Shown piece by piece: positions 230 through 44,900 of a stretch of 64,000 bases of DNA (position 1 is the stretch's first letter; the number at the start of each line of letters is the position of its first letter). A model generated the notes under the pieces. The model made no database searches. It worked only from the letters and a program-made list of their open reading frames with translations, and was not told the DNA's origin. Both the position numbers and the translations under genes were made by a program. Source of the stretch: Bispira polyomma (lineage: Eukaryota); assembly GCA_965649765.1 (NCBI GenBank), contig OZ287754.1, forward strand, positions 24,986,001 to 25,050,000, read 5' to 3'.

Positions 230-1270
230 CCTGTGCTTTACTTTCTGACAATCTCCCACAGCTGGCTAGGCCAATCATTAATTAGCCTCTTAATTAGATA
301 ATTTATTCCCATAATCAAGTACCATATTGAATCTCACAGACCAAGGTGAAACACTGGAAAATTCCCACCCCACACCTTATATTTATCCTGTTAGTAGTTT
401 CTTCGATCACACATATTACATTTTTATATAGGGATTTGAGGCAATTGGGCCAAAGATATGGTGACAATATTAAGCCATTAATATTAATGATACCTTCTCT
501 GGACCAAACTATGGTCTGCGCTTGCTGGGTAACCAGAGCTCAGGCACCATGTAGAGCATCCTGTCTCCTATATGTCCTCTGAGTGCACGTTCATGGCACC
601 AGAGTTGAAAAAGAGCTCTGGGAGGCAGGACCCCCTGCTATGCAATTAGGTGCCGAGTTCCTGCTCCAGTCCGACACACTAAGACAGGGTTACACAGAGG
701 TTACACTTCTTACTGTTCTTATGTCGTCAATACCAAATTCCTGTATAATGCTATTAGGGATTACATTTATTACCTTTCTGCTTATATCTTTAACTGGTGG
801 GCTTTAATACATCCTTCTATGGCGTTGAATTGATAAACTTCGAGGGCCAGTCTCATGATATTGTGTTACTACGCTAGCTTATATTTTTAGTGTTTTAATA
901 TATGTTAACATAATAATGGTTACGTTTATTATACGTCCAACTATAGTGTTGTTTGCAAAATAGTGCAAATAGTGGTTCATTACATAACACTTTTACACTT
1001 CTTTAATTGAATACATTTTATGATGCATTTCCCCCCTGCCATAGCTATTTTAAACATAGCCATTTTACTTCACCCTTCTGAGGCTAACATAAACCCTCTG
1101 TCTAACATTAAGTTGACCTTAGTTTTGCCTTAGAATCCTGCAGTATGACGATTAAGCACATTGGTTTTCTAATTAAATAAACAAATCTTAATGCATGGTT
1201 AATGCATTTATTCTAGCCTGCTATAGTTACCAAGCATGGGACGGTATATACATTATACTCAATGCTTTCT
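230..1270 (+). mobile_element. very degenerate DIRS-like RT/RNase H remnant (tentative)
   Basis: Scattered frame-broken motifs resembling those of the better preserved element at 9.6-11.4 kb: YGLR (~510), PNSCIMLLGITF (cf. PSTEVTYLGIDI) and LNWW (~790). Confidence 0.3.
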
Positions 1271-12300: not shown

Positions 12301-12306
12301 TATTAG
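11450..12306 (+). pseudogene. tyrosine recombinase of the DIRS/Ngaro-like element (broken, truncated)
   Basis: ORF 11731-12306 carries the catalytic-type R (FRMSN) and HxxR (HPCRRSGAT) motifs but ends before the catalytic Tyr region. Confidence 0.8.
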
Positions 12307-20300: not shown

Positions 20301-21900
20301 TGTTTCATATTTTCAATTAGGATGAATTCAGTTTTGTCAGGGTTTAATTTCCGTTTGGAGTAATTCATCCACACCTGAATTGAGGAGAGACAGTCAGCAA
20401 GTAACTCCAGGTTGTATCCGGCATTCTGAGTGTTAAGAGCTCTCTCTTTAGATTTGAGTGTCATCAGCTTACATGTGATGTTTAACATTGTGATTATTGA
20501 TGACTGCACTTAGAGGATGGGTGTAGAGGGTAAACAGTAAATGGCCGAGAACCGACCCCTGGGGTAGTCCAAATGGTAGGTTAAAAGAGGATGAAAAGTG
20601 GTCGACCAATTTAATTTTTGGGTTTTAAGAGCAAGGTTCGATTTGATCCAATCAAGGACAGTACCATTAAGACCAAACCACTGTTTTAGGGTGTTAAAGA
20701 GTAAGCCATGGTCGATGGTATCAAAAGCTGTGGAGAGATCAAGAAGGGTGAGGGCTACAGTTTCATCATAATCCAAGGCAAGGTTAATGTCATCACTGAT
20801 TGAAAGAGGGCACAATTATTGTTTCACAATAACGGGTAACACAGGAAATTATAAGATCAAACTTGCAGAATAAGGTTTTACTGATATTAAAGAAGTTTTC
20901 TATAAATAATAGTTGTATTATTACTAGAATATTACATGTACTTTGAGGATTGAGGTAATGAATAAAAGAGTAAAAGAAAATTCTGTCGAAACCCTTATAA
21001 TAAAAAATAACATGAAGCGACATCCTGTTAATCAATGACATTAAATTTAAAGTAACATATGTAGCAAACAAAATATTCCTAAAGATTGGAAAGCTTTTTA
21101 ATATAATTTTTTATCCCTTTTTGAAAGCTATCATTAATTGAAAAAGTTTATTGCAAATTAAATATATATATTCTTTCAGAAAAAGATTCAATCAAATATA
21201 TACAGAATGTTACACATATATAATCACTGCAAACTTCAAATTTATAGGTACAAAAAAGTTATTTAAAATTAATCAATGTGTCATTGGCAATTTTCTTGCT
21301 TTTTTTGAAACTGTTGGTAACTTATATAGAAGCATTATGTGTGAGTTACTATTAAATGATAATAAAACAATGTTATTAGTAATATAGAAGATTGAGTAAA
21401 AAGCAACACAGCATGTAAAATGTTGATAATTTGCATAAAGAATTTACTTTCTCATCAATTGTTTCTAGCACAACTAAATAAAAAGGTTTAACAAGATAAT
21501 TATATCCTGATGTAACTGTCAATTTAGAAGTTGGGCAATAATAGAGTCAAACAACAATAACTAGTGAAAATCATCGTAATTAAAATTTAACAACAGTATT
21601 GGCCCTTCACTGAAATTTTACCTGTAGCATTATAAGTTGTTATTAGTTAATAAATAAATGATAACTCGTTTAGTAGCAAAATAGATTGACTTAATGAATA
21701 AATATACAAAAATAAAGTACATTTTCTGTCCAAACCATTTAAATTTTTTTATAATGCTCTGTTACTGTCAATTACATTAAAACTCTTTGTTATTTACATT
21801 CATATTCCCTATAAAAAGCTAAAATAAATTAAATAAGAAATTTAAAGATTCACTTAAATCAAGTATACACACAACTTTCAAATTGATAGTGTCAAACAGT
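17380..21900. repeat. degenerate AT-rich tandem repeat (about 5-6 scrambled copies) 3' of the gene, related to the gene's introns
   Basis: Motif acagtattagccc..aaagctttacatgtgacctgaccaatttcatattactcaa recurs near 17790, 18430, 18715, 19485 and 21590. Motif tgtcaatttagaag..gg..gattcaaatgagcataact recurs near 17613, 18210, 19300 and 21515. Confidence 0.8.
19560..20812 (-). mobile_element. 5'-truncated L2/CR1-type LINE (RT C-terminus)
   Basis: LTLLDLSTAFDTIDH, KLNPDKTEFILI, VKNLGVT.D, ALVSSRLNYCNSILYG, LKKLHWLPIHYRILFK. It interrupts a repeat copy whose uninterrupted paralogue is at 18775-18830. Confidence 0.9.
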
Positions 21901-21964
21901 TGGTTCTTTAGCTTAGAGTTGATCAAAACGTCAGTATTTAATAATAAGCTTCTTTTGTCCTTGC

Positions 21965-22056
21965 TTAGTTGTTCATCCACATGGCTGCAATGGTCAGCAT
22001 CATCAGCATAAGGGAAGGTTCCTTTAGTGTGGCACTGCTTTTAACTTCAAAAAGTT
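21965..22056 (-). CDS. last coding exon: GPI-anchor-type C-terminal signal (K)LFEVKSSATLKEPSLMLMMLTIAAMWMNN*
   Basis: Acceptor gtgttttttaag and phase 1 matching the repeat exons. Small-residue triplet SSA, a polar spacer, a 13-residue hydrophobic stretch, then TAA. An alternative in-frame AG lies 12 nt downstream. Confidence 0.8.
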
Positions 22057-23932
22057 CTTAAAAAACACATGAATCACATTAATTATAATATCATTCTCAG
22101 TATCTTGTTGTTTTACTTCCTTGGTGGTTCTTACTTTATACATACCGTCTGTTTACTTCAGTGTTTACTCAGCATGTTTTACAATAGACAATATTGACTT
22201 TTGAGATAGTATTCAAATTTGTTGATAAAGCACAAATAGTTTTGGTAAGAAGTGAATGTGTAATCGGGACTTGGTTCCAGCAGAAGACATTTGAAACACT
22301 TTCTTGTTTAGGACAGAAACTTAAAACCTATTGCTGCAAACTGGACTAGACCCCTTAGTTCCCTCCTAGTGCACCTTACATCCTTCCTTGCGGCCTTGGC
22401 TATGCTTTTGGACTAATTTTTAACATGATTCAACATGTGTATTTTTATGAAATTGTCAAGGCAATGATACTTGTGAGACATGATATGTCTCTAATTTGCA
22501 AAGTGCATTATGACACAAAAGTTTAATTGTGACTTCGACTTTGAGAACACTCTATTATTGTTATAATTTGTTTTAGTTGTACTCACTTTGACAGCCAGAT
22601 TTGTCTGCCTTCAGGACTTTGTCATTAGTACATTTCATGCAATTGTCATGTGAATCACATTCTACACAGTCTGCCATTGCCTCGGAGCAAGCTGAAAAAA
22701 GCAACAACGGTACAAATTTACATTACTACAAGTTATCTCCTGAATAAACATGCACGCAATAATCCTGAAAAAGTAAAGACAAAGTTCTATGCCACCTTAA
22801 CCAAGAGATTTTTTTCATGTGGGGACTACAATTTGGGTCTCCTTCATCTTTTTTGTTGACTTTTGGTGTGAAGAAGTTAATTGACATTTTAGAAATCATT
22901 GAAGTTATGTCCTCTCAAGAATGATTGACTAAAGGACAGTCGCAAAATATAGGACTTTCCGGCTGAATTCACACAATTCCTAGAGACCCTTAGTCTACTT
23001 CCAATGGTAAAACCTCCTGAACGTTTTCGGTTACATTTAGCACATTAAAACAGCTACCCACATCCCCAACCATATTCTAGATCTAGTTATAAGTCAATCT
23101 GAGTCAACTCTGCTAAAAGCCACAGATGTCCCTGATGGTATCTCTGATCATTTCGCCACTTTTGCCACTATTTTGCTACCCAAAGATATCAAGGGTAAAA
23201 CCAAAATCATTAAAATTTAAGGATTAAATAAAATTGACATCAATAATTTCGACATGATATATTGGCCTCCAACCTCATCAAATGCCCATGTAAACAAGCT
23301 AAATTTTAGGCAACCAATACCAAAATACTTGACACACACACCAGTCACCAACAAGCATTTCACCGTCTCCTCCTAATAAATGGTCGACTGCAGCCATCTC
23401 TTAGACCAAACACTGTAAGCAACAGATTGAGAAAGTTTGGCATCAGACAAAATCTGGGTACTACAAACGGCAATACAGAAGGGCCACAAATGATTTTAAT
23501 GCCCATATGTCCAAGGCCTACAAGGACCACGATGAATATATCACCTCTGACAATTTTAACTCCCCTAAAAAGCTATGGAACTCAGTAAACTCCATCCTCC
23601 AGAGAAAATCAGGAAACTCACTACCAGATAGACACTGTACATTTCGTTTCAGAGAGTTTTTTTTATCAAACTTTTAAAATCAGATCTGCCTTTAGGGCTG
23701 CAACTGACAACCTCCCTACGATGTTCTTGGGCTCAATCACTTTCATTCTATGTCTGAGAGTGATGTCTTTAAACTTATTACATCCTCCACTCTCAAATCC
23801 TGTGACTTTGATGCCATTCCAGGTTCTGTTATTTCCAATGTCTTGACATTCTTAATTCACCCATCACTAACATAGTTAACTTATCACTTCTTAAAGGCAG
23901 TTTTCCTGCCTGTTTGACAACTACTTTTTTAC

Positions 23933-23963
<31 letters not shown>

Positions 23964-26900
23964 ACATATACTCAAGAAATCCAACCTTGATAAACACACT
24001 TAAAAATTTTAGGCTTGTGTCTGGCAGCAGGCAGCACGCCTAAATCAGTATGCCTACAGAAAAAATCACTCAGCTGAAAGTGCGTTCTTATATATACTGA
24101 CATCAAACTTGTCTTGACAAAGGTAAAACTACTGCTTTGACACTTGCCAGATGTCTCGACTCCATCCAAGATTGGATCAATTTTTCCAAACTCACACTTA
24201 ATCCTGTCAAAACTAAATTTTATACTAAACAGCACTAAAAAACACAAGGAATAAACTTAAGTCAATGTTTCCTATTAATCTACTCAGCAATGACATACTC
24301 CCAGCGGATAAAGTAAAAAATTTGGGTGTTACTTTTGACTCCCTCTTTTCCTTCGACAATCATATGTCTAATATACGTCGATCTAGTTACATTGATCATG
24401 CATTTGTAAGCAGTCGATCGGACTACTGCAATTTTTGGCTTCTTAGACTAATGAAGTACCAGATGCAAAGGCTACAATCAATGCAGAATCACATGCGCAG
24501 AGGCGTGTGCTGTGTGGGATGATGTGTCAGTATGACTCCTTTTCTCAAAAGGCTACATTGGCTACCTGTACAGTACCGCATCAGTTTCAAGACCAATGTT
24601 ACAACATACAAAGCTGTAAACGTATGTCAGCCCCCATATCTTGCCTTGCCTCCCTCTTACCAAGGGAAAATAATTTCAGTCTCTAATACCAGGACTAGTA
24701 AACGGATTGGATCCTATGCTTTCTCTGTTGCAGCACTTACCCTATGGAATAATTTACCAACCAATATATGATCACAGAAAACCCTCATTGGCTTTAGAAG
24801 TAACCTTAAGACTCATATCTTCACTGTCGCTTACTTTCTATATACATGTCCTCAACGTCTTCCGAATCCTATAGAAGATGCCTGGCATCATTTAGGCGCA
24901 TTAAGAATCTATCATATCATATCATATATTGCGATATTACAGTTGTATTAACTTTTAGATATTGCAATATATTGGGCCATATTCCATTTGCAATATAATT
25001 GTATTGAAAAAATATATTGTGATATATAGAGTTTCCAATGTATTGTTTCACCTAATTGTCTAATCTGAACAGCACCATCAAGGTCCTATTGCAATTGGTC
25101 TTATTGTTGCACCTTAACATATAGTTAAACCCTATTAAGTGTAGTTTTAGATATTTCTGAAATAATTTTCACATACCGTCAATTTACACCAGCAATGTCA
25201 CTGCGGGTACCCGAGGGTATGGGTACCTGTACCTAGTTGCTCGATAATGGTTTCAAACATAGGTTGTCGGTGTTTCTTTGTTACCCACTAGGCCAGAGTG
25301 ACAGATAAAACAAACGATCAAAGAAACTACGACTGATTATGTAAAGCTTATCAAAAACATTAATCTGCTGTCTTGGCTAAAGCATGACTTAACTTAAATT
25401 TATTTTGTGTGTACTCACCTTGACAACCAGTCCTGTCTTTCTTGGGGACTTTGTCATTACTACAAGCCGTACAACTGTCATGTGAGTCACAAACTGCACA
25501 ATCTTCCATTGCATCAGAGCAAGCTGAATATAGTATTATATTTAGAATTTTGTGTTACATAGTACAAATTCGCATTACTACAAGTTATCTCGTTAATAAC
25601 TTAAGCACAAATATGTTGGGTGATAAGTGAATGTGTAATATTGTACTAATTTCCAGAAAATAGGGTTCTGGTGGCTGTAGCATGGTCTGGTATGGGTACC
25701 TATACTTGGTAGATCAAGACTGAATTCAAACCTGGGTGGTCTGTGTTTCTAAGCGAATGTGTTACCCACTAGGCCAGAGTGACAGATAAAACAAAGAAAC
25801 TACGCCTAATTAAGTAAAGCTTATCAAAAACATTAATATGTTGTCTTGGCTACAGCATGACTGAACTTAAATTCGTTTTGTGTGTACTCACCTTGACAAC
25901 CAGTGTTGTCTTCCTTGGGGACCTTTTCATTACTACAAGCCGTACAACTGTCATGTGAGTCACATGCTGCACAATCTTCCATAGTCTCCGAGCAAGCTGA
26001 ATATAGCATAATATTTAGCATTTGGTGTTACATAGTACAAATGTGTATTGTGTGTTATCTCCTTAATAACTTAAGCACAAATAGGTTGGGTGATAAGTGA
26101 ATGTGTAATAGTGTGCTTATTTCCAGAAAAAAGAATTTTTGTACCATAGCATGGGCTGGTATGGGTACCTTTACCTATTAGATCAAGACTGGATTCAAAC
26201 CTGGGTCCAGTGTTCCATAGTGAATGTGGTATCAACTAAGATACAGTGACTGATGAAACAAACAAGAATGCTTTTCAGTATCAAATTTTGTATTCTTATT
26301 GAAAGCTTTTAGCTTTTAGCAATTTGTGTTTAGTATAACATATTTACATTACCACAATTTAGAGTTGATCAACTCTTGAATAAATTTAGCACAAACTGTC
26401 TAGATACTCTAGTGTTACTCAGCATGTTTTTCAATTGACATTATTGTCTACTAATGATTTTTAAAGGAATATTTAAATTTGTTGATGAAACACAAATAGT
26501 TTAGGCAAAAATTAAATGTGTATTTACATTTTCAGAAAATAGGATTAAGGTAGCAGTGTCACGACAGGTATGGGTACCTTACCTAGTTACTCAATACTGA
26601 TTTCAAGCATAGATGTGTTCCTAAGTGCATGTGTTACCCACTAGGCCAGAGTGACAGATAAAACAAATGATAAAGAAACTACGACTAATTATGTAAAGCT
26701 TATCTAAAATATTAATATGTTGTCTTGGTTACAGCATGACTGAACTTAAATTTTATTTTGTGTGTACTAACCTTGACAACCAGTGTTGTCTTCCTTGGGG
26801 ACTTTGTCATTACTACAAGCCGTACAACTGTCAAGTGAGTCACATGCTGCACAATCTTCCATGGTCACTGAGCAAGCTGAATATAGCATAATATTTAGCA

Positions 26901-29900
26901 TTTGGTGTTACATAGTACAGATGTGTATTACTACAAGTTATCGCCTTAATAACTTAAACGCATATAGGTTAGGTGATAATTGAATGTGTAATAGTGTACT
27001 AATTTTCAGAAAATAGGATGTGTGTGGCCGTGGCATGGGCTGGTATGGGTACCATAACCTGGTAGATCAAGACTGGATTCAAACCTAGGCTGTCTGTGTT
27101 CCCAAGCGAGTGTGTTACCCACTCTGCATGAGTGACAGAAAAAACAAACGATCAAAGAAACTATGACTATTTATGTGAAGCTTATCAAAACATTAATCTG
27201 TGGTCTTGGCTACAGCATGACTTACCATAACTTTTATTTTGTGTGTACTAACCTTGACAACCAGTCTTGTCTTCCTTAGGGACTTTGTCATTACTACAAG
27301 CCGTACAACTGTCAAGTGAGTCACATGCTGCACAATCTTCCATGGTCAATGAGCAAGCTAAATATAGCATTTGGTGTTTTATAGTACAAATTTGCATTAC
27401 TACAAGTTATCTCCTTAATATGCTTAGCACAAACAAGTTGGGAGATAAGCGGAGGTGTAATAGGGTAATCTGTTCCAGAAAGTAGGATTCAAGTGGCTGT
27501 GTCATGGGCGAGTACCCAAGGGTATGGGTACCTTTACCGAGTCGAACAAGACTCACTCAAAGATCGGTTGAGCGAATGTGTTACACCGACTAGACCAGAG
27601 TGACAGATAAAACAAACGATCAAAGAAACTATAACTAATTATTTAAAGCTTATCAAAAACAGTAATATGTTGTCTTGGCTACAGCATGACTGAACTTAAA
27701 TTCGTTTTGTGTGTACTCACCTTGACAACCAGTGTTGTCTTCCTTGAGGACTCTGTCATTACTACAAGCCGTACAATTGTCAAATGAGTCACATGCTGCA
27801 CAATCTTCCATTGCCTCAGAGCAAGCTGAATATAGCAATATATTTAGCATTTTGTGTTTAGTAGTACATATTTACATTACTACAAGTTATCTCCTTAATA
27901 GAAGTTCAGTACAAATAATTTTGGTTATAAGTGAAGGTGTAATAGGGTTCTATGTTCCAGAAAATCGGATTCAGGTGGCTGTGTAATGGGCGGGTACCCT
28001 GCGATATGGATACTTTTACCTGGTAAATCAAGCCTGGATTCAAACCTAGGTCCACTGTGTTCATAAACAAATGTGGTATCCACTGGGACACAGAAATGAT
28101 AATGCTTTTCAAGATCAAATTTTGTATTTCTTATTGAAAGCAATCATCAATTGAAAATATGTACTAAAAGTAACACAAAAATTTAAACATATATGTTATT
28201 ACTAAATAAAGATTCATGGAAAGATACACAAAATGTTAAATATATACACTAAATCACTACAAACTTCAAATTCATAGTTATAAAAACACTATTTAAAATT
28301 GCTGAATGGAATGCAAATTTTCTTCCTTTCTTTGAAGTTGTTGGTAAATTATATAAAAGTATTATGTATCTGTAACTAGTGAATACTCAAGACTTAATGT
28401 TATCAGTAAAGTAGAAGATTGAATTTAAATTTTTAAAGTTGATCGACTCTTGAATAAACTTAGCACATACTGTCTAGATACTCCAGTGTTACTCAGCATG
28501 TTTGACAATGGACATTATTGTTTACCAATGATTTTTGAAGGGATATTCAAATTTGTTGACTAAACACAAATAGTTTAGGCAATAAGTGATGCGTGTTCAC
28601 ATATTCAGAAAATAGGATTCGAGTAGCAGTGTCACAACAGGTATAGGTACCTTACCTTGTTGATCGATACTGGTTTCAAACAAAGGTTTTCTGTGTTCCT
28701 AAGCGGATGTGTTACCCACTAGGCCAGAGTAACAGATAAAACAAACGATCAAAAAAACTATAACTAATTATATGAAGCTGATCTGTTGCAGAAAAAAGGA
28801 TTCGGGCAGCTGTGTCCAGGGCTGGTACTCGGAAGTATGGGTATGATTACCTGGTCAATCAAAACTAGATTCAAACCTAGGTTCTTTCTGTTACTAAGTA
28901 AATGTGTTACCCACAAAGCCAAAGTGACAGATAAAGGAAACAATCAAAGAAACTATAACTAATTATGTAAAGCTTATCAAAAACATTAATCTGTTGTCTT
29001 GGTTAAGGCATGACTTAACTTAAATTTATTTTGTGTATACTCACTTTGACAGCCAGTGTTGTCTTGCTTGATGACTTTGTCATTACTACAAGCCGTACAA
29101 CTGTCATGTGAGTCACATGCTGCACAATCTTCCATTGCCTCAGAGCAAGCTGAATATAACATTATATTTAGCATTTTGTGCTTAGTAGTACAGATTTACA
29201 TTAGTGTAAGTTATCTCCTTAATAAGTTTAGAACAAAAATAAATTGTGTGGTAAGTGAGGGTGTAATAGGTACTCAGTTCCAGAAAATATGATTTGGGTG
29301 CCTGTGTCATGGGTGGGTACCAGTAACTACAGGTGCCTTTACCTGGTCTATTGAGACTGGATTCAAACTTAGGTCCACTGTGTTCCCAAACGAATGTGGT
29401 ATACACTGGGACACAGTGGCTGATAAAAAAAACGATAATGCTTGTTAATATGAAGTTTTGTATTCCTTATTGAAAGCTAACATCAATTGAAAATATGTAC
29501 CAAAAGTTACACAAAAAATGAAACATAAATATTATTATTACTAAAAAAGATTCACTGTAAGATACACAAAATGTTAAATATATACACTAAATTACTGCAA
29601 ACTTTAAATTTATAGTTAAAAAAATATTATTTAAAATTCATGAATGTGTAAATGGATTTATTTTACTTTCTTTGAAATTGTTGGTAAATTATATATAAGT
29701 ATCAGTGACTATTAAATACTCAAGATTTGTTTTACTTTCTTTGAAATTGTTGGTAAATTATATATAAGTATCAGTAACTATTAAATACTCAAAAGACCTA
29801 TTGTTATTAGTAATGAAGAAGATTGATTTAAAGTATTTAGAGTTGATCAACTCTTGAATAAATTTAGCACATACTGTCTAGTTACTCTAGTCTTTACTCA

Positions 29901-32900
29901 GCATGTTTTACAATGGACAATATTGTCTACTTATGATTTTTGAAGGAATACTCACTTTGGCAACCAGTGTTGTCTTCCTTGAGGACTTTGTCATTACTAC
30001 AATCCGTACAACTGTCATGTGAGTCACATGCTGCACAATCTTCCATTGCCTCAGAGCAAGCTGAATATAGCATTATATTTAGCATTTTGTGCTTAGTAGT
30101 ACAGATTTACAGTAGTATAAGCTGTCTCCTTATTAAGTTCAGAACAAATAATTGGGGTGGTAAGTGAAAGTGTAGTAGGTACTTCATTCCAGAAAATAGG
30201 ATTTGGGTGCCTTTGTCATGGGTGGGTATCCGGAACTACAGGTGCCTTTACCTGGTCTATTGAGACTAGATTCAAATCTATGTTCTCTCTGTTCCTAAGC
30301 AAAGGTGTTACCCACTAGGCCAAGGTGACAGATAAAACAAACAATCAAAGAAACTATAACTAATTATGTAAAACTTATCAAAAACATAAATTTGTTGTCT
30401 TGGTTACGTCATGAATGGACTTAAATTTATTTTGTGTGTACTCACCTTGACAACCAGTCTTGTCTTCCTTGGGGACTTTGTCGTTACTACAATCAGTACA
30501 ACTGTCATGTGAGTCACATACTGCACAATCTTCCATGGTGTCAGAGCAAGCTGAATATAAAAATGTATTTAGCATATTGTGTTTGGTTGTACAGATTTAC
30601 ATTACTACAATTTATCTCCTTAATATAAGTTCAGCACCAATAATTTCGGTTGTAAGTGAATGTGTAATAGATACTCAGTTTCAGAAAATAAGAATCGAAC
30701 GGCTTTGTTACGGGCGGGTATCCGGAAGTATGAGTACCTTTACCTGGTCGATCAAGACTGGATTCAAACCTAGGTCAGTGTTCCATAGTGAATGTGGTAT
30801 CAACTATGACACAGTGACTGATAAAACAAACGAGGATGCTTTTAAATATCAAATTATGTAGAATTATTGAAAGCTTTTTATTGAAGGCATTTTATGTTTA
30901 GTGGTTCAGATTTACATTACTACAATTTATATCCTCAATAAAAGTTCAGCACAAATAATTCGGGTGGTAAGTGAAGGTGTAATAAGGTAATTTCAAGAAA
31001 ATACAATTCAGGTGGCTGGCATGAGTACCTCTACCTGGTCTATAATGAATGTTTTACCCACTTGGCCTGAGTGACAAATCAAACAAACAACCAAAGAAAC
31101 TCTGGCTACTGCAACCAGTCAACTTATCAAAACATACAGATGTTGTCTTGGGTACAGCATGAATTACTTTAACTCCTATTTTGTGTATCCTCACCTTGGC
31201 AACCAGTGTTGTCTTCCTTGAGGACTTTGTCATTACTACAAGCCGTGCAACTGTCATGTGAGTCACATGCTGCACAATCTTCCATTGTCTCAGAGCAAGC
31301 TGAATATAGCATTATATATATATATATAACTTCAAAACAAAACATTTGGGTAGTAAGTGAAGGTGTAATAAGTACTCAGTTCCTGAAAATAGGATTTGGG
31401 TGCCTGTGTTATGGGTGGGGGCCTGGAACTACAGATGCCTTTACCTGGTAAATTGAAACTGGATTCAAATCTAGGTTTACTGTGTTCCTAAGCGAATGTG
31501 GTATCCACTGGGACACAGTGACCAATAAAAGAAATGATAATGCTTTTCAAGATCAAGTTTTGTATTTCTTATTGAAAGCAATCATCAATTGAAAATATGT
31601 ACTAAAAGTAACACAAAAATTTAAACATATATGTTATTACTAAATAAAGATTCATGGAAAGATACACAAAATGTTAAATATATACACTAAATCACTACAA
31701 ACTTCAAATTCATAGTTATAAAAACACTATTTAAAATTGCTGAATGGAATGCAAATTTTCTTCCTTTCTTTGAAGTTGTTGGTAAATTATATAAAAGTAT
31801 TATGTATCTGTAACTAGTGAATACTCAAGACTTAATGTTATCAGTAATGTAGAAGATTGAATTTAAATTTTTAAAGTTGATCGACTCTTGAATAAACTTA
31901 GCACATACTGTCTAGATACTCCAGTGTTACTCAGCATGTTTGACAATGGACATTATTGTTTACCAATGATTTTTGAAGGGATATTCAAATTTGTTGACTA
32001 AACACAAATAGTTTAGGCAATAAGTGATGCGTGTTCACATATTCAGAAAATAGGATTCGAGTAGCAGTTTCACAACAGGTATAGATACCTTACCTTGTTG
32101 ATCGATACTGGTTTCAAACAAAGGTTTTCTGTGTTCCTAAGCGGATGTGTTACCCACTAGGCCAGAGTAACAGATAAAACAAACGATCAAAAAAACTGTA
32201 ACTAATTATGTAAAACTTATCAAAAACATTAATCTGTTGTCTTGGTTAAGGCATGACTTAACTTAAATTTATTTTGTGTATACTCACTTTGACAGCCAGT
32301 GTTGTCTTGCTTGATGACTTTGTCATTACTACAAGCCGTACAACTGTCATGTGAGTCACATACTGCACAATCTTCCATGGTGTCAGAGCAAGCTGAATAT
32401 AAAAATGTATTTAGCATATTGTGTTTGGTTGTACAGATTTACATTACTACAATTTATCTCCTTAATATAAGTTCAGCACCAATAATTTCGGTTGTAAGTG
32501 AATGTGTAATAGATACTCAGTTTCAGAAAATAAGAATCGAACGGCTTTGTTACGGGCGGGTATCCGGAAGTATGAGTACCTTTACCTGGTCGATCAAGAC
32601 TGGATTCAAACCTAGGTCAGTGTTCCATAGTGAATGTGGTATCAACTATGACACAGTGACTGATAAAACAAACGAGGATGCTTTTAAATATCAAATTATG
32701 TAGAATTATTGAAAGCTTTTTATTGAAGGCATTTTATGTTTAGTGGTTGAGATTTACATTACTACAATTTATATCCTCAATAAAAGTTCAGCACAAATAA
32801 TTCGGGTGGTAAGTGAAGGTGTAATAAGGTAATTTCAAGAAAATACAATTCAGGTGGCTGGCATGAGTACCTCTACCTGGTCTATAATGAATGTTTTACC

Positions 32901-35900
32901 CACTTGGCCTGAGTGACAAATCAAACAAACAACCAAACAAACTCTGGCTACTGCAACCAGTCAACTTATCAAAACATACAGATGTTGTCTTGGGTACAGC
33001 ATGAATTACTTTAACTCCTATTTTGTGTATCCTCACCTTGGCAACCAGTGTTGTCTTCCTTGAGGACTTTGTCATTACTACAAGCCGTGCAACTGTCATG
33101 TGAGTCACATGCTGCACAATCTTCCATTGTCTCAGAGCAAGCTGAATATAGCATTATATATATATATATATAAGTTCAAAACAAAACATTTGGGTAGTAA
33201 GTGAAGGTGTAATAAGTACTCAGTTCCTGAAAATAGGATTTGGGTGCCTGTGTTATGGGTGGGGGCCTGGAACTACAGATGCCTTTACCTGGTAAATTGA
33301 AACTGGATTCAAATCTAGGTTTACTGTGTTCCTAAGCGAATGTGGTATCCACTGGGACACAGTGACCAATAAAAGAAATGATAATGCTTTTCAAGATCAA
33401 GTTTTGTATTTCTTATTGAAAGCAATCATCAATTGAAAATATGTACTAAAAGTAACACAAAAATTTAAACATATATGTTATTACTAAATAAAGATTCATG
33501 GAAAGATACACAAAATGTTAAATATATACACTAAATCACTACAAACTTCAAATTCATAGTTATAAAAACACTATTTAAAATTGCTGAATGGAATGCAAAT
33601 TTTCTTCCTTTCTTTGAAGTTGTTGGTAAATTATATAAAAGTATTATGTATCTGTAACTAGTGAATACTCAAGACTTAATGTTATCAGTAATGTAGAAGA
33701 TTGAATTTAAATTTTTAAAGTTGATCGACTCTTGAATAAACTTAGCACATACTGTCTAGATACTCCAGTGTTACTCAGCATGTTTGACAATGGACATTAT
33801 TGTTTACCAATGATTTTTGAAGGGATATTCAAATTTGTTGACTAAACACAAATAGTTTAGGCAATAAGTGATGCGTGTTCACATATTCAGAAAATAGGAT
33901 TCGAGTAGCAGTTTCACAACAGGTATAGATACCTTACCTTGTTGATCGATACTGGTTTCAAACAAAGGTTTTCTGTGTTCCTAAGCGGATGTGTTACCCA
34001 CTAGGCCAGAGTAACAGATAAAACAAACGATCAAAAAAACTGTAACTAATTATGTAAAACTTATCAAAAACATTAATCTGTTGTCTTGGTTAAGGCATGA
34101 CTTAACTTAAATTTATTTTGTGTATACTCACTTTGACAGCCAGTGTTGTCTTGCTTGATGACTTTGTCATTACTACAAGCCGTACAACTGTCATGTGAGT
34201 CACATACTGCACAATCTTCCATGGTGTCAGAGCAAGCTGAATATAAAAATGTATTTAGCATATTGTGTTTGGTTGTACAGATTTACATTACTACAATTTA
34301 TCTCCTTAATATAAGTTCAGCACCAATAATTTCGGTTGTAAGTGAATGTGTAATAGATACTCAGTTTCAGAAAATAAGAATCGAACGGCTTTGTTACGGG
34401 CGGGTATCCGGAAGTATGAGTACCTTTACCTGGTCGATCAAGACTGGATTCAAACCTAGGTCAGTGTTCCATAGTGAATGTGGTATCAACTATGACACAG
34501 TGACTGATAAAACAAACGAGGATGCTTTTAAATATCAAATTATGTAGAATTATTGAAAGCTTTTTATTGAAGGCATTTTATGTTTAGTGGTTGAGATTTA
34601 CATTACTACAATTTATATCCTCAATAAAAGTTCAGCACAAATAATTCGGGTGGTAAGTGAAGGTGTAATAAGGTAATTTCAAGAAAATACAATTCAGGTG
34701 GCTGGCATGAGTACCTCTACCTGGTCTATAATGAATGTTTTACCCACTTGGCCTGAGTGACAAATCAAACAAACAACCAAAGAAACTCTGGCTACTGCAA
34801 CCAGTCAACTTATCAAAACATACAGATGTTGTCTTGGGTACAGCATGAATTACTTTAACTCCTATTTTGTGTATCCTCACCTTGGCAACCAGTGTTGTCT
34901 TCCTTGAGGACTTTGTCATTACTACAAGCCGTGCAACTGTCATGTGAGTCACATGCTGCACAATCTTCCATTGTCTCAGAGCAAGCTGAATATAGCATTA
35001 TATATATATATATATAAGTTCAAAACAAAACATTTGGGTAGTAAGTGAAGGTGTAATAAGTACTCAGTTCCTGAAAATAGGATTTGGGTGCCTGTGTTAT
35101 GGGTGGGGGCCTGGAACTACAGATGCCTTTACCTGGTAAATTGAAACTGGATTCAAATCTAGGTTTACTGTGTTCCTAAGCGAATGTGGTATCCACTGGG
35201 ACACAGTGACCAATAAAAGAAATGATAATGCTTTTCAAGATCAAGTTTTGTATTTCTTATTGAAAGCAATCATCAATTGAAAATATGTACTAAAAGTAAC
35301 ACAAAAATTTAAACATATATGTTATTACTAAATAAAGATTCATGGAAAGATACACAAAATGTTAAATATATACACTAAATCACTACAAACTTCAAATTCA
35401 TAGTTATAAAAACACTATTTAAAATTGCTGAATGGAATGCAAATTTTCTTCCTTTCTTTGAAGTTGTTGGTAAATTATATAAAAGTATTATGTATCTGTA
35501 ACTAGTGAATACTCAAGACTTAATGTTATCAGTAATGTAGAAGATTGAATTTAAATTTTTAAAGTTGATCGACTCTTGAATAAACTTAGCACATACTGTC
35601 TAGATACTCCAGTGTTACTCAGCATGTTTGACAATGGACATTATTGTTTACCAATGATTTTTGAAGGGATATTCAAATTTGTTGACTAAACACAAATAGT
35701 TTAGGCAATAAGTGATGCGTGTTCACATATTCAGAAAATAGGATTCGAGTAGCAGTTTCACAACAGGTATAGATACCTTACCTTGTTGATCGATACTGGT
35801 TTCAAACAAAGATTTTCTGTGTTCCTAAGCGGATGTGTTACCCACTAGGCCAGAGTAACAGATAAAACAAACGATCAAAAAAACTGTAACTAATTATGTA

Positions 35901-38900
35901 AAACTTATCAAAAACATTAATCTGTTGTCTTGGTTAAGGCATGACTTAACTTAAATTTATTTTGTGTATACTCACTTTGACAGCCAGTGTTGTCTTGCTT
36001 GATGACTTTGTCATTACTACAAGCCGTACAACTGTCATGTGAATCACATACTGCACAATCTTCCATGGTGTCAGAGCAAGCTGAATATAAAAATGTATTT
36101 AGCATATTGTGTTTGGTTGTACAGATTTACATTACTACAATTTATCTCCTTAATATAAGTTCAGCACCAATAATTTCGGTTGTAAGTGAATGTGTAATAG
36201 ATACTCAGTTTCAGAAAATAAGAATCGAACGGCTTTGTTACGGGCGGGTATCCGGAAGTATGAGTACCTTTACCTGGTCGATCAAGACTGGATTCAAACC
36301 TAGGTCAGTGTTCCATAGTGAATGTGGTATCAACTATGACACAGTGACTGATAAAACAAACGAGGATGCTTTTAAATATCAAATTATGTAGAATTATTGA
36401 AAGCTTTTTATTGAAGGCATTTTATGTTTAGTGGTTGAGATTTACATTACTACAATTTATATCCTCAATAAAAGTTCAGCACAAATAATTCGGGTGGTAA
36501 GTGAAGGTGTAATAAGGTAATTTCAAGAAAATACAATTCAGGTGGCTGGCATGAGTACCTCTACCTGGTCTATAATGAATGTTTTACCCACTTGGCCTGA
36601 GTGACAAATCAAACAAACAACCAAAGAAACTCTGGCTACTGCAACCAGTCAACTTATCAAAACATACAGATGTTGTCTTGGGTACAGCATGAATTACTTT
36701 AACTCCTATTTTGTGTATCCTCACCTTGGCAACCAGTGTTGTCTTCCTTGAGGACTTTGTCATTACTACAAGCCGTGCAACTGTCATGTGAGTCACATGC
36801 TGCACAATCTTCCATTGTCTCAGAGCAAGCTGAATATAGCATTATATATATATATATATAAGTTCAAAACAAAACATTTGGGTAGTAAGTGAAGGTGTAA
36901 TAAGTACTCAGTTCCTGAAAATAGGATTTGGGTGCCTGTGTTATGGGTGGGGGCCTGGAACTACAGATGCCTTTACCTGGTAAATTGAAACTGGATTCAA
37001 ATCTAGGTTTACTGTGTTCCTAAGCGAATGTGGTATCCACTGGGACACAGTGACCAATAAAAGAAATGATAATGCTTTTCAAGATCAAGTTTTGTATTTC
37101 TTATTGAAAGCAATCATCAATTGAAAATATGTACTAAAAGTAACACAAAAATTTAAACATATATGTTATTACTAAATAAAGATTCATGGAAAGATACACA
37201 AAATGTTAAATATATACACTAAATCACTACAAACTTCAAATTCATAGTTATAAAAACACTATTTAAAATTGCTGAATGGAATGCAAATTTTCTTCCTTTC
37301 TTTGAAGTTGTTGGTAAATTATATAAAAGTATTATGTATCTGTAACTAGTGAATACTCAAGACTTAATGTTATCAGTAATGTAGAAGATTGAATTTAAAT
37401 TTTTAAAGTTGATCGACTCTTGAATAAACTTAGCACATACTGTCTAGATACTCCAGTGTTACTCAGCATGTTTGACAATGGACATTATTGTTTACCAATG
37501 ATTTTTGAAGGGATATTCAAATTTGTTGACTAAACACAAATAGTTTAGGCAATAAGTGATGCGTGTTCACATATTCAGAAAATAGGATTCGAGTAGCAGT
37601 TTCACAACAGGTATAGATACCTTACCTTGTTGATCGATACTGGTTTCAAACAAAGGTTTTCTGTGTTCCTAAGCGGATGTGTTACCCACTAGGCCAGAGT
37701 AACAGATAAAACAAACGATCAAAAAAACTGTAACTAATTATGTAAAACTTATCAAAAACATTAATCTGTTGTCTTGGTTAAGGCATGACTTAACTTAAAT
37801 TTATTTTGTGTATACTCACTTTGACAGCCAGTGTTGTCTTGCTTGATGACTTTGTCATTACTACAAGCCGTACAACTGTCATGTGAGTCACATACTGCAC
37901 AATCTTCCATGGTGTCAGAGCAAGCTGAATATAAAAATGTATTTAGCATATTGTGTTTGGTTGTACAGATTTACATTACTACAATTTATCTCCTTAATAT
38001 AAGTTCAGCACCAATAATTTCGGTTGTAAGTGAATGTGTAATAGATACTCAGTTTCAGAAAATAAGAATCGAACGGCTTTGTTACGGGCGGGTATCCGGA
38101 AGTATGAGTACCTTTACCTGGTCGATCAAGACTGGATTCAAACCTAGGTCAGTGTTCCATAGTGAATGTGGTATCAACTATGACACAGTGACTGATAAAA
38201 CAAACGAGGATGCTTTTAAATATCAAATTATGTAGAATTATTGAAAGCTTTTTATTGAAGGCATTTTATGTTTAGTGGTTCAGATTTACATTACTACAAT
38301 TTATATCCTCAATAAAAGTTCAGCACAAATAATTCGGGTGGTAAGTGAAGGTGTAATAAGGTAATTTCAAGAAAATACAATTCAGGTGGCTGGCATGAGT
38401 ACCTCTACCTGGTCTATAATGAATGTTTTACCCACTTGGCCTGAGTGACAAATCAAACAAACAACCAAAGAAACTCTGGCTACTGCAACCAGTCAACTTA
38501 TCAAAACATACAGATGTTGTCTTGGGTACAGCATGAATTACTTTAACTCCTATTTTGTGTATCCTCACCTTGGCAACCAGTGTTGTCTTCCTTGAGGACT
38601 TTGTCATTACTACAAGCCGTGCAACTGTCATGTGAGTCACATGCTGCACAATCTTCCATTGTCTCAGAGCAAGCTGAATATAGCATTATATATATATATA
38701 TAAGTTCAAAACAAAACATTTGGGTAGTAAGTGAAGGTGTAATAAGTACTCAGTTCCTGAAAATAGGATTTGGGTGCCTGTGTTATGGGTGGGGGCCTGG
38801 AACTACAGATGCCTTTACCTGGTAAATTGAAACTGGATTCAAATCTAGGTTTACTGTGTTCCTAAGCGAATGTGGTATCCACTGGGACACAGTGACCAAT

Positions 38901-41900
38901 AAAAGAAATGATAATGCTTTTCAAGATCAAGTTTTGTATTTCTTATTGAAAGCAATCATCAATTGAAAATATGTACTAAAAGTAACACAAAAATTTAAAC
39001 ATATATGTTATTACTAAATAAAGATTCATGGAAAGATACACAAAATGTTAAATATATACACTAAATCACTACAAACTTCAAATTCATAGTTATAAAAACA
39101 CTATTTAAAATTGCTGAATGGAATGCAAATTTTCTTCCTTTCTTTGAAGTTGTTGGTAAATTATATAAAAGTATTATGTATCTGTAACTAGTGAATACTC
39201 AAGACTTAATGTTATCAGTAATGTAGAAGATTGAATTTAAATTTTTAAAGTTGATCGACTCTTGAATAAACTTAGCACATACTGTCTAGATACTCCAGTG
39301 TTACTCAGCATGTTTGACAATGGACATTATTGTTTACCAATGATTTTTGAAGGGATATTCAAATTTGTTGACTAAACACAAATAGTTTAGGCAATAAGTG
39401 ATGCGTGTTCACATATTCAGAAAATAGGATTCGAGTAGCAGTTTCACAACAGGTATAGATACCTTACCTTGTTGATCGATACTGGTTTCAAACAAAGGTT
39501 TTCTGTGTTCCTAAGCGGATGTGTTACCCACTAGGCCAGAGTAACAGATAAAACAAACGATCAAAAAAACTGTAACTAATTATGTAAAACTTATCAAAAA
39601 CATTAATCTGTTGTCTTGGTTAAGGCATGACTTAACTTAAATTTATTTTGTGTATACTCACTTTGACAGCCAGTGTTGTCTTGCTTGATGACTTTGTCAT
39701 TACTACAAGCCGTACAACTGTCATGTGAGTCACATACTGCACAATCTTCCATGGTGTCAGAGCAAGCTGAATATAAAAATGTATTTAGCATATTGTGTTT
39801 GGTTGTACAGATTTACATTACTACAATTTATCTCCTTAATATAAGTTCAGCACCAATAATTTCGGTTGTAAGTGAATGTGTAATAGATACTCAGTTTCAG
39901 AAAATAAGAATCGAACGGCTTTGTTACGGGCGGGTATCCGGAAGTATGAGTACCTTTACCTGGTCGATCAAGACTGGATTCAAACCTAGGTCAGTGTTCC
40001 ATAGTGAATGTGGTATCAACTATGACACAGTGACTGATAAAACAAACGAGGATGCTTTTAAATATCAAATTATGTAGAATTATTGAAAGCTTTTTATTGA
40101 AGGCATTTTATGTTTAGTGGTTCAGATTTACATTACTACAATTTATATCCTCAATAAAAGTTCAGCACAAATAATTCGGGTGGTAAGTGAAGGTGTAATA
40201 AGGTAATTTCAAGAAAATACAATTCAGGTGGCTGGCATGAGTACCTCTACCTGGTCTATAATGAATGTTTTACCCACTTGGCCTGAGTGACAAATCAAAC
40301 AAACAACCAAAGAAACTCTGGCTACTGCAACCAGTCAACTTATCAAAACATACAGATGTTGTCTTGGGTACAGCATGAATTACTTTAACTCCTATTTTGT
40401 GTATCCTCACCTTGGCAACCAGTGTTGTCTTCCTTGAGGACTTTGTCATTACTACAAGCCGTGCAACTGTCATGTGAGTCACATGCTGCACAATCTTCCA
40501 TTGTCTCAGAGCAAGCTGAATATAGCATTATATATATATATATAAGTTCAAAACAAAACATTTGGGTAGTAAGTGAAGGTGTAATAAGTACTCAGTTCCT
40601 GAAAATAGGATTTGGGTGCCTGTGTTATGGGTGGGGGCCTGGAACTACAGATGCCTTTACCTGGTAAATTGAAACTGGATTCAAATCTAGGTTTACTGTG
40701 TTCCTAAGCGAATGTGGTATCCACTGGGACACAGTGACCAATAAAAGAAATGATAATGCTTTTCAAGATCAAGTTTTGTATTTCTTATTGAAAGCAATCA
40801 TCAATTGAAAATATGTACTAAAAGTAACACAAAAATTTAAACATATATGTTATTACTAAATAAAGATTCATGGAAAGATACACAAAATGTTAAATATATA
40901 CACTAAATCACTACAAACTTCAAATTCATAGTTATAAAAACACTATTTAAAATTGCTGAATGGAATGCAAATTTTCTTCCTTTCTTTGAAGTTGTTGGTA
41001 AATTATATAAAAGTATTATGTATCTGTAACTAGTGAATACTCAAGACTTAATGTTATCAGTAATGTAGAAGATTGAATTTAAATTTTTAAAGTTGATCGA
41101 CTCTTGAATAAACTTAGCACATACTGTCTAGATACTCCAGTGTTACTCAGCATGTTTGACAATGGACATTATTGTTTACCAATGATTTTTGAAGGGATAT
41201 TCAAATTTGTTGACTAAACACAAATAGTTTAGGCAATAAGTGATGCGTGTTCACATATTCAGAAAATAGGATTCGAGTAGCAGTTTCACAACAGGTATAG
41301 ATACCTTACCTTGTTGATCGATACTGGTTTCAAACAAAGGTTTTCTGTGTTCCTAAGCGGATGTGTTACCCACTAGGCCAGAGTAACAGATAAAACAAAC
41401 GATCAAAAAAACTGTAACTAATTATGTAAAACTTATCAAAAACATTAATCTGTTGTCTTGGTTAAGGCATGACTTAACTTAAATTTATTTTGTGTATACT
41501 CACTTTGACAGCCAGTGTTGTCTTGCTTGATGACTTTGTCATTACTACAAGCCGTACAACTGTCATGTGAGTCACATACTGCACAATCTTCCATGGTGTC
41601 AGAGCAAGCTGAATATAAAAATGTATTTAGCATATTGTGTTTGGTTGTACAGATTTACATTACTACAATTTATCTCCTTAATATAAGTTCAGCACCAATA
41701 ATTTCGGTTGTAAGTGAATGTGTAATAGATACTCAGTTTCAGAAAATAAGAATCGAACGGCTTTGTTACGGGCGGGTATCCGGAAGTATGAGTACCTTTA
41801 CCTGGTCGATCAAGACTGGATTCAAACCTAGGTCAGTGTTCCATAGTGAATGTGGTATCAACTATGACACAGTGACTGATAAAACAAACGAGGATGCTTT

Positions 41901-44900
41901 TAAATATCAAATTATGTAGAATTATTGAAAGCTTTTTATTGAAGGCATTTTATGTTTAGTGGTTCAGATTTACATTACTACAATTTATATCCTCAATAAA
42001 AGTTCAGCACAAATAATTCGGGTGGTAAGTGAAGGTGTAATAAGGTAATTTCAAGAAAATACAATTCAGGTGGCTGGCATGAGTACCTCTACCTGGTCTA
42101 TAATGAATGTTTTACCCACTTGGCCTGAGTGACAAATCAAACAAACAACCAAAGAAACTCTGGCTACTGCAACCAGTCAACTTATCAAAACATACAGATG
42201 TTGTCTTGGGTACAGCATGAATTACTTTAACTCCTATTTTGTGTATCCTCACCTTGGCAACCAGTGTTGTCTTCCTTGAGGACTTTGTCATTACTACAAG
42301 CCGTGCAACTGTCATGTGAGTCACATGCTGCACAATCTTCCATTGTCTCAGAGCAAGCTGAATATAGCATTATATATATATATATAAGTTCAAAACAAAA
42401 CATTTGGGTAGTAAGTGAAGGTGTAATAAGTACTCAGTTCCTGAAAATAGGATTTGGGTGCCTGTGTTATGGGTGGGGGCCTGGAACTACAGATGCCTTT
42501 ACCTGGTAAATTGAAACTGGATTCAAATCTAGGTTTACTGTGTTCCTAAGCGAATGTGGTATCCACTGGGACACAGTGACCAATAAAAGAAATGATAATG
42601 CTTTTCAAGATCAAGTTTTGTATTTCTTATTGAAAGCAATCATCAATTGAAAATATGTACTAAAAGTAACACAAAAATTTAAACATATATGTTATTACTA
42701 AATAAAGATTCATGGAAAGATACACAAAATGTTAAATATATACACTAAATCACTACAAACTTCAAATTCATAGTTATAAAAACACTATTTAAAATTGCTG
42801 AATGGAATGCAAATTTTCTTCCTTTCTTTGAAGTTGTTGGTAAATTATATAAAAGTATTATGTATCTGTAACTAGTGAATACTCAAGACTTAATGTTATC
42901 AGTAATGTAGAAGATTGAATTTAAATTTTTAAAGTTGATCGACTCTTGAATAAACTTAGCACATACTGTCTAGATACTCCAGTGTTACTCAGCATGTTTG
43001 ACAATGGACATTATTGTTTACCAATGATTTTTGAAGGGATATTCAAATTTGTTGACTAAACACAAATAGTTTAGGCAATAAGTGATGCGTGTTCACATAT
43101 TCAGAAAATAGGATTCGAGTAGCAGTTTCACAACAGGTATAGATACCTTACCTTGTTGATCGATACTGGTTTCAAACAAAGGTTTTCTGTGTTCCTAAGC
43201 GGATGTGTTACCCACTAGGCCAGAGTAACAGATAAAACAAACGATCAAAAAAACTGTAACTAATTATGTAAAACTTATCAAAAACATTAATCTGTTGTCT
43301 TGGTTAAGGCATGACTTAACTTAAATTTATTTTGTGTATACTCACTTTGACAGCCAGTGTTGTCTTGCTTGATGACTTTGTCATTACTACAAGCCGTACA
43401 ACTGTCATGTGAGTCACATACTGCACAATCTTCCATGGTGTCAGAGCAAGCTGAATATAAAAATGTATTTAGCATATTGTGTTTGGTTGTACAGATTTAC
43501 ATTACTACAATTTATCTCCTTAATATAAGTTCAGCACCAATAATTTCGGTTGTAAGTGAATGTGTAATAGATACTCAGTTTCAGAAAATAAGAATCGAAC
43601 GGCTTTGTTACGGGCGGGTATCCGGAAGTATGAGTACCTTTACCTGGTCGATCAAGACTGGATTCAAACCTAGGTCAGTGTTCCATAGTGAATGTGGTAT
43701 CAACTATGACACAGTGACTGATAAAACAAACGAGGATGCTTTTAAATATCAAATTATGTAGAATTATTGAAAGCTTTTTATTGAAGGCATTTTATGTTTA
43801 GTGGTTCAGATTTACATTACTACAATTTATATCCTCAATAAAAGTTCAGCACAAATAATTCGGGTGGTAAGTGAAGGTGTAATAAGGTAATTTCAAGAAA
43901 ATACAATTCAGGTGGCTGGCATGAGTACCTCTACCTGGTCTATAATGAATGTTTTACCCACTTGGCCTGAGTGACAAATCAAACAAACAACCAAAGAAAC
44001 TCTGGCTACTGCAACCAGTCAACTTATCAAAACATACAGATGTTGTCTTGGGTACAGCATGAATTACTTTAACTCCTATTTTGTGTATCCTCACCTTGGC
44101 AACCAGTGTTGTCTTCCTTGAGGACTTTGTCATTACTACAAGCCGTGCAACTGTCATGTGAGTCACATGCTGCACAATCTTCCATTGTCTCAGAGCAAGC
44201 TGAATATAGCATTATATATATATATATAAGTTCAAAACAAAACATTTGGGTAGTAAGTGAAGGTGTAATAAGTACTCAGTTCCTGAAAATAGGATTTGGG
44301 TGCCTGTGTTATGGGTGGGGGCCTGGAACTACAGATGCCTTTACCTGGTAAATTGAAACTGGATTCAAATCTAGGTTTACTGTGTTCCTAAGCGAATGTG
44401 GTATCCACTGGGACACAGTGACCAATAAAAGAAATGATAATGCTTTTCAAGATCAAGTTTTGTATTTCTTATTGAAAGCAATCATCAATTGAAAATATGT
44501 ACTAAAAGTAACACAAAAATTTAAACATATATGTTATTACTAAATAAAGATTCATGGAAAGATACACAAAATGTTAAATATATACACTAAATCACTACAA
44601 ACTTCAAATTCATAGTTATAAAAACACTATTTAAAATTGCTGAATGGAATGCAAATTTTCTTCCTTTCTTTGAAGTTGTTGGTAAATTATATAAAAGTAT
44701 TATGTATCTGTAACTAGTGAATACTCAAGACTTAATGTTATCAGTAATGTAGAAGATTGAATTTAAATTTTTAAAGTTGATCGACTCTTGAATAAACTTA
44801 GCACATACTGTCTAGATACTCCAGTGTTACTCAGCATGTTTGACAATGGACATTATTGTTTACCAATGATTTTTGAAGGGATATTCAAATTTGTTGACTA

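What the first reader, a model, noticed from the sequence alone, without database searches (positions are those of the whole stretch)
21965..22056. Terminal exon encodes a GPI attachment-type signal
Seen: in frame after the last repeat comes KLFEVK-SSA-TLKEPS-LMLMMLTIAAMWM-NN-stop. Established: a small-residue omega triplet, polar spacer and terminal hydrophobic stretch with no cytoplasmic tail is the GPI signal architecture. This ties the repeat exons to a real protein end and argues against a metallothionein-like cytosolic protein or mere satellite DNA.
Basis: partly seen in the sequence, partly recalled or inferred. Interest (0 to 1): 0.7.

Follow-up and report, generated by a model that had tools for sequence, protein, structure and literature searches.

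The report
GPI-anchor exon of repeat-stalk family
This stretch reads as the last exon of an animal gene family built from many copies of one cysteine-rich exon, and it is predicted to encode a lipid-anchor signal that would hold a long stalk with a fast-changing tip on the cell surface, but this particular copy is likely broken.

Summary
The peptide is there: minus strand, in frame with the last repeat exon, ending at TAA 21967-21965. It has a small-residue triplet 24 residues from the end, a polar spacer and an uncharged hydrophobic tail. Alone that is weak (about 11% chance nearby). The family makes the case. The exon has 14 copies in this genome. A complete paralogue on C11 (402 aa) is hydrophobic only at its two ends, which is the GPI pattern. 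Distant paralogues end in unrelated sequences with the same layout. Three corrections. (2) The window's copy probably never reaches this exon: a spliceable repeat exon (51567-51463) carries a TGA, and no start/signal exon was found for it. (3) Four copies have lost the stop and carry a basic tail. The family has an orphan N-terminal domain (weak sign of positive selection) and 5-46 furin-like repeat exons (purifying selection). No RNA evidence was available. Verdict: a real GPI-type terminal exon of an apparently undescribed surface-protein family, seen here in a likely defective copy.

The parts
21965..22044 (-). Coding part of the terminal exon from the acceptor shared by all copies; predicted GPI attachment signal; TAA at 21967-21965
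22045..22056 (-).
22031..22039 (-). Predicted omega, omega+1, omega+2 (Ser-Ser-Ala); the omega column is S, G or D across copies, the next two are invariant
21974..22012 (-). 13-codon uncharged hydrophobic tail
21937..21942 (-). ATTAAA 23 nt after the stop, a possible poly(A) signal, at that offset in 11 of 14 copies; untested
22587..22691 (-). Last 105-nt phase 1-1 furin-like repeat exon (six Cys), AG/GT intact
25419..55965 (-). 35 further 105-nt repeat exons, 32 of them open with AG/GT
30248..52908 (.). Recent tandem amplification of a roughly 1842-bp two-exon unit, about 12 copies, 99.7% identical between neighbours
51463..51567 (-). Repeat exon with intact splice sites but an in-frame TGA at 51541-51539; 1 of 150 such exons in the family
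53236..53340 (-). Dead repeat exon: no AG acceptor and an in-frame TAA
55861..55965 (-). Repeat exon whose donor reads GA instead of GT; likely skipped
62558..62680 (-). Divergent first repeat exon (123 nt). Three more exons of this gene lie just beyond the window, at G000:C7:25051947-25054107
1191..1194 (-). Junction of a roughly 291-bp deletion that removed the start/signal exon of the next paralogue downstream

Best explanation
The stretch reads as the last exon of a member of a tandem gene family whose exons each encode one furin-like cysteine repeat; it is predicted to encode a GPI attachment signal that would tether a rod of such repeats, tipped by a variable orphan domain, to the outer cell surface, but the window's own copy is likely defective. 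Shown by sequence: exon order (signal-end exon, two N-domain exons, first repeat, n repeats, terminal exon), 14 terminal-exon copies, and one complete open gene model on C11. Inferred: a signal peptide sends the protein into the ER, the transamidase cuts 23 residues off after the small omega residue and adds GPI, the disulfide-bonded repeats act as a spacer whose length changes by unequal crossing-over between symmetric exons, and the N-terminal domain does the binding (recognition, adhesion or decoy; ligand unknown). For the window's copy: no start/signal exon was found and a stop sits in a spliceable early repeat exon, so it most likely makes no anchored protein.
For: Layout matches the GPI features listed in PMC2571997: omega 24 from the end, small triplet, spacer, hydrophobic end. 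The acceptor is at the same place in 14 of 14 copies and the frame is kept (one in-frame 6-nt deletion). Omega varies only among S, G and D. Exon identity between the A/B types and the C, D, E and K types is 0.90-0.93 against 0.56-0.61 for the 80 intron bases before it. The C11 model has 11 exons, all AG/GT, 402 aa, no internal stop, and hydrophobic 11-residue windows starting only at residues 2-8, 21 and 385-390. The C12 model has 516 aa with hydrophobic windows only at 8-13 and 502-506. The three end classes share 2-3 of their last 24 residues, and 5 of 6 ends tested pass the rule. Repeat exons show omega about 0.39, p 0.001-0.009 against 1. The repeat profile's best PDB match is the R-spondin furin-like domain, E 0.0014. 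For the defect: TGA in 1 of 150 exons; the start exon is found at only 3 places genome-wide with two queries, and not by nhmmer in 85 kb upstream of this gene.
Against: No transcript and no trained predictor. The rule is mine and passes chance frames: 15 lines in 110 kb and 13 in 70 kb at the distant loci, one of them lying before the chosen C12 exon. The terminal exon on its own shows no dN/dS signal (pN about equal to pS over 25 codons), and the first 80 nt of UTR are as conserved as the exon. 4 of 14 copies carry a basic tail and fail the rule, as does one distant paralogue with a Lys near the end. Against 'defective': the cluster's exons are mostly open, and the three sister copies have no stop in spliceable exons. 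The TGA is a two-base change seen once and could be an assembly error. A non-homologous start exon cannot be excluded.
Confidence: 0.7

Rival explanations
1. The window's gene is functional and GPI-anchored. It uses a new, non-homologous start exon, and the TGA exon is skipped or is an assembly error.
For: N-domain exons and 33 of 36 repeat exons are open. The old start exon was lost in two separate ways in the cluster while the frames stayed open, as expected if it had been replaced. The N-domain exon shows omega about 1.8 within the cluster. A weak hydrophobic ATG-to-GT candidate exists 3.5 kb upstream in types A and B. Symmetric exons can be skipped without frameshift.
Against: No leader candidate is shared across types A/B, C/E and P. 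The candidate's donor is poor, and such frames arise by chance in AT-rich DNA. The TGA exon's splice sites are identical to those of its open neighbours. Dead exons have been amplified inside the sister arrays.
Confidence: 0.2
2. The hydrophobic end is a short membrane-spanning or tail-anchor segment, not a GPI signal. Leaderless copies would start at a Met in the first N-domain exon and sit on the cytosolic side.
For: 4 of 14 copies have a basic tail after the hydrophobic run. Copies without the leader have an in-frame Met at codon 17.
Against: The run is only about 13 residues. The complete paralogues have a leader and a small-residue triplet at a fixed distance. The C11 model has 10 N-glycosylation sequons and 40 Cys, which fits an extracellular protein.
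Confidence: 0.06
3. The GPI-like look is chance, and the true last exon lies elsewhere or the array is coding-derived satellite.
For: About 11% chance of one passing frame within 2 kb. Whole gene units were duplicated, so conservation among close copies is partly inheritance.
Against: Conservation jumps at the acceptor. The same layout recurs in unrelated sequences at distant paralogues. Repeat exons show purifying selection.
Confidence: 0.04

Closest known systems
GPI-anchored proproteins in general (features from PMC2571997, Background read)
   Same: Small residues around omega, spacer, hydrophobic end, omega 20-30 from the C-terminus; leader present in the complete paralogues.
   Different: The window's copy has no identified leader; 4 of 14 copies have a basic extension; nothing is shown experimentally.
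Furin-like (FU) cysteine-rich repeats, as in R-spondins
   Same: Paired CxxC spacing; profile match E 0.0014 over 22 residues; ESM Atlas leads to Furin-like_2, GF_recep_IV and VSP clusters at 0.84-0.89.
   Different: No Pfam hit for single repeats. One repeat per 105-nt symmetric exon, 5-46 copies, conserved Met at position 5, an orphan head domain and a GPI-type end instead of TSP1 or protease domains (the last point is recalled).
Giardia variant surface proteins and ciliate i-antigens (PMC10156722, passages read)
   Same: Works like them in outline: multigene, CXXC-rich ectodomain, variable N-terminal part, conserved membrane-attaching C-terminus. That paper names Ichthyophthirius i-antigens as GPI-anchored.
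   Different: No transmembrane domain plus CRGKA tail; intron-rich, exon-per-repeat animal genes; about 15 close copies rather than 136; no evidence of mutually exclusive expression.
Mammalian CEACAM family (PMC2832619, passages read)
   Same: Analogy only: tandem family, diversifying N-domain, gene conversion, birth and death, anchor type switched by stop-codon changes in the last exon.
   Different: No sequence or fold relation found; CEACAMs use Ig domains.

Membership tests
GPI-anchored protein | Small residues at omega to omega+2, about 20-30 residues from the end | tested here: met
   Ser-Ser-Ala, 24 from the end; S/G/D at omega in 14 of 14 copies
GPI-anchored protein | Polar spacer, then hydrophobic tail to the C-terminus without a cytosolic tail | tested here: met
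   Met in the window copy and in 10 of 14 copies; 4 of 14 have a basic extension and fail my rule
GPI-anchored protein | N-terminal signal peptide in the window's own gene | tested here: inconclusive
   No homologue of the family's start exon found for this copy; a non-homologous leader is not excluded
GPI-anchored protein | N-terminal signal peptide in complete paralogues | tested here: met
   By hydropathy only, no SignalP: C11 and C12 models have an N-terminal hydrophobic stretch
GPI-anchored protein | Open frame from start to the GPI signal in the window's own gene | tested here: not met
   TGA in a spliceable exon; frame ends after 266 codons if all AG/GT exons are used
GPI-anchored protein | Spliced transcript, positive trained predictor, PI-PLC release | not testable with these tools
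   No RNA holder listed; no predictor on the script machine
Furin-like (FU) repeat | Profile match to FU domains | tested here: inconclusive
   PDB best E 0.0014; Atlas below 0.9; no Pfam family for single 34-aa repeats
Giardia VSP | Multiple CXXC motifs | tested here: met
   Two per repeat; six invariant Cys in 13 aligned repeats
Giardia VSP | Transmembrane domain and CRGKA tail | tested here: not met
   None of the 14 ends has it (feature)
Metallothionein | Small cytosolic protein without leader or hydrophobic end (definition recalled) | tested here: not met
   Complete models are 402 and 516 aa with a leader and a hydrophobic end

The most novel reading that the evidence does not exclude
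The leaderless C7 cluster is a silent archive of variable head domains and stalk lengths. It is expressed by gene conversion into a complete locus, or by trans-splicing to a lone leader exon such as the orphan one on C3. That would be an animal counterpart of protist variable-surface-antigen systems, with a one-base stop switch deciding between GPI-anchored and tailed forms.
Probability: 0.06. Interest if true: 0.85.

Novelty: new variant of a known kind. Interest (0 to 1): 0.42.

Why it matters
A GPI signal is ordinary. Its value here is that it fixes the topology of a gene family for which no relative was found in the protein collections searched: an extracellular orphan head with a hint of diversifying selection, on a furin-like stalk whose length is set by exon copy number (5-46), anchored by lipid. 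That design suggests a recognition, adhesion or decoy molecule. The complete C11 gene gives a 402-aa construct with which anchor, fold and ligand can be tested. The finding also warns that most copies in the large cluster lack the leader exon, so the striking array in this window may be a dying or silent copy.

Tried and rejected
RNA: no RNA holder listed. The three runs laid cover introns evenly, so they look like DNA, and they show no exon junction; this is no evidence either way. Whether the TGA is present in reads remains open. Homologue searches for the N-domain exon found nothing usable: word index, weak negative; Atlas; Pfam; PDB sequences. The single HMMER hit (E 5e-6 summed over six stretches) is a bacterial DUF7507/T9SS repeat protein and was rejected as spurious. 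The first repeat exon found no homologue. A beta-trefoil/ricin-B idea (recalled resemblance) got no support: models of one exon had pLDDT 40 and 56, Foldseek gave no E below 0.001, best VIA Z 4.4, and the two N-domain exons do not align to each other. This is inconclusive, since only part of the domain was folded. A conserved block 0.7 kb upstream of the second exon (13 family copies) was considered as a new promoter; it is only slightly more conserved than its surroundings and has no shared leader frame, so it is not claimed. 'Stops occur only in splice-dead exons' (1 of 176 live against 8 of 29 dead) rests on about two independent events among copied exons and is not used as proof. The p-values for the N-domain exon were inflated by a poor kappa grid; one search replaces them. 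One search missed one repeat exon in each of five C/E genes (found) and mis-set some exon ends (corrected). Literature: searches returned 0 papers; two listed nothing describing this family (listings only). The library lacks most subscription journals; no supplements were read.

Full report
Observation. On the minus strand, 22056-21965 follows an AG. The predicted omega residue lies 24 from the end, followed by a six-residue polar spacer and 13 uncharged hydrophobic residues. This fits the features listed in PMC2571997 (Background read). A hand-made rule, tuned knowing this sequence, passed 69 of 7574 unrelated acceptor-to-stop frames. Of 13 distinct frame ends within 2 kb of the last repeat, only this one passed. 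That is roughly an 11% chance event, so outside evidence is needed.

The gene. The window holds 36 phase 1-1 exons of 105 nt, each coding six cysteines, from 55965 to 22587, plus a divergent 123-nt first repeat at 62680-62558. Most sit in a roughly 1842-bp two-exon unit repeated about 12 times at 99.7% identity. Three further exons (34, 132 and 273 nt, all AG/GT, in frame) lie just beyond the window. The repeat profile's best PDB match is the furin-like domain of R-spondin-1 (E 0.0014). The ESM Atlas gives VSP and Furin-like_2 clusters as leads below 0.9. Single repeats hit no Pfam family.

The family. The window is G000:C7:24986001-25050000. The terminal exon has 14 copies: 12 in a tandem cluster at C7 24.29-25.01 Mb, one on C11, and one in a decayed fragment at C7 25.5 Mb. 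The largest N-domain exon also has 14 copies. One of these genes, at C7 26.1 Mb, has no terminal exon within 60 kb. The number of 105-nt repeat exons runs from 5 to 46. Type B is a mosaic, closer to type C in its 5' exons and to type A at the 3' end.

The acceptor. All 14 copies have an AG at the place matching exon start 22044. Both are in frame. The upstream site has the better pyrimidine run and comes first, so type A may use it; this is undecided. The omega column holds only S, G or D, and the next two residues are invariant. Identity between the A/B types and the C, D, E and K types is 0.90-0.93 in the exon and 0.56-0.61 in the preceding intron, but the first 80 nt of UTR are equally conserved, and 25 codons give no dN/dS signal. 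In 4 of 14 copies (the three sister A copies and the decayed one) the stop reads TAT, giving a tail with basic residues that fails the rule.

Complete relatives. A 36-nt ATG exon with a hydrophobic frame and phase 0 donor was found upstream of paralogue D and of the C11 gene. The C11 model has 11 exons with canonical sites, 402 aa, no internal stop, 40 Cys, 10 sequons, and hydrophobic stretches only at its two ends. More distant genes with the same exon-per-repeat design lie at C11 8.05-8.12 Mb (34 and 10 repeat exons found, as an inverted pair) and C12 48.21 Mb (12 exons). The C11 pair keeps both N-domain exons at 21-26% identity, with six and seven invariant columns; I did not identify their start exons. 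The C12 model is 516 aa with a leader and a hydrophobic end. The three end classes share only 2-3 of their last 24 residues, yet 5 of 6 ends tested pass the rule; the sixth has one Lys near the end. The C12 assignment is less safe, because another passing frame lies before it. Together this makes the GPI reading likely for the family.

The window's copy. Three of its 36 repeat exons are damaged. Two are splice-dead. The third, 51567-51463, has intact sites and a TGA made by two adjacent base changes, seen in 1 of 150 such exons; using all AG/GT exons, the frame ends after 266 codons. The three sister copies read through to the terminal exon. The start exon was found at only three places genome-wide with two queries: D, C11 and an orphan on C3 with no family exons in the 60 kb after it. 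nhmmer over 942 kb of held DNA, including 85 kb upstream of this gene, found no other. The one type C and one type E copy examined lost it by a clean deletion of about 291 bp, whose junction is at window 1191-1194; the type A and B copies examined lack the whole region. D keeps the leader but has stops in two N-domain exons. On this assembly, then, none of the 12 cluster genes is demonstrably complete.

Selection. A codon model on 7-9 sequences gives omega 0.38-0.41 for two repeat exons (p 0.001-0.009). For the large N-domain exon it gives 1.76-1.83 within C7 (p 0.03-0.04), and 1.3, not significant, with C11 included. The small N-domain exon is not distinguishable from 1. The positive signal would not survive correction for three tests, and gene conversion breaks the tree assumption, so it is a hint. 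It does sit oddly with leaderless genes: either selection predates the loss, or a new leader exists. The C11 terminal exon has 0 synonymous differences from type A over 16 sites, against about 0.38 per site in the N-domain exons, which suggests 3' exchange between chromosomes or strong constraint.

Mechanism and comparison. The best reading is a GPI-anchored surface protein with a variable head on a disulfide-bonded stalk; ER entry, cleavage, anchoring and binding are all inferred. It works like CXXC-rich protist surface antigens in outline but fails the VSP test, having no transmembrane segment with a CRGKA tail (PMC10156722, passages). The stop-codon switch recalls CEACAM anchor evolution (PMC2832619, passages), as an analogy only. 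PMC6742230 (passages) shows that GPI predictions are normally filtered for an N-terminal signal. The head domain has no relative in the collections searched and no assignable fold. The organism was not identified here. An earlier AI note on this genome mentions shellfish; that is unchecked. Array lengths and near-identical segmental copies (98.9-100%) come from one assembly and may not be exact.

Verdict. It is a new variant of a known kind; interest 0.42.

Noticed in passing
window 1191-1194: Junction of a clean deletion of about 291 bp that removed the start exon, its donor and the proximal promoter from the neighbouring paralogue; the same junction occurs in a type E copy.
   Followed up: yes
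L086 (G000:C3:72881465): Orphan copy of the leader exon with intact frame, donor and a TATA-like box, but no family exons in the 60 kb downstream.
   Followed up: partly
L105-L113 (G000:C11:8045000-8123000): Inverted pair of distant paralogues; one has 34 well-diverged repeat exons (mean 37% identity), an old stalk in contrast to the window's recent amplification (88%).
   Followed up: partly
L117-L119 (G000:C12:48207964-48225160): Complete-looking 516-aa gene: leader, a 31-aa four-Cys exon in place of the orphan head, 12 repeats, GPI-type end.
   Followed up: partly
G000:C7:26097356-26110184 and 25513600-25516130: A 5' half without a terminal exon and, 0.6 Mb before it on the same strand, a decayed 3' half; possibly one rearranged gene or a misassembly.
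   Followed up: partly
window 10244-13710: GC-richer stretch with broken frames that resemble a retroelement with a tyrosine-recombinase-like end (recalled resemblance; no Pfam hit at 0.001).
   Followed up: partly
window 19844-20509, 54300-54950, 56740-57560, 22800-24500: Decayed LINE-like reverse-transcriptase/endonuclease fragments, judged by eye from the sequence; some are inserted in this gene's introns.
   Followed up: no
G000:C7:24280000-25060000: The cluster alternates short (C/D/E) and long (A/B) genes in six pairs of roughly 130 kb, some 99-100% identical: very recent segmental duplication or assembly duplication.
   Followed up: partly
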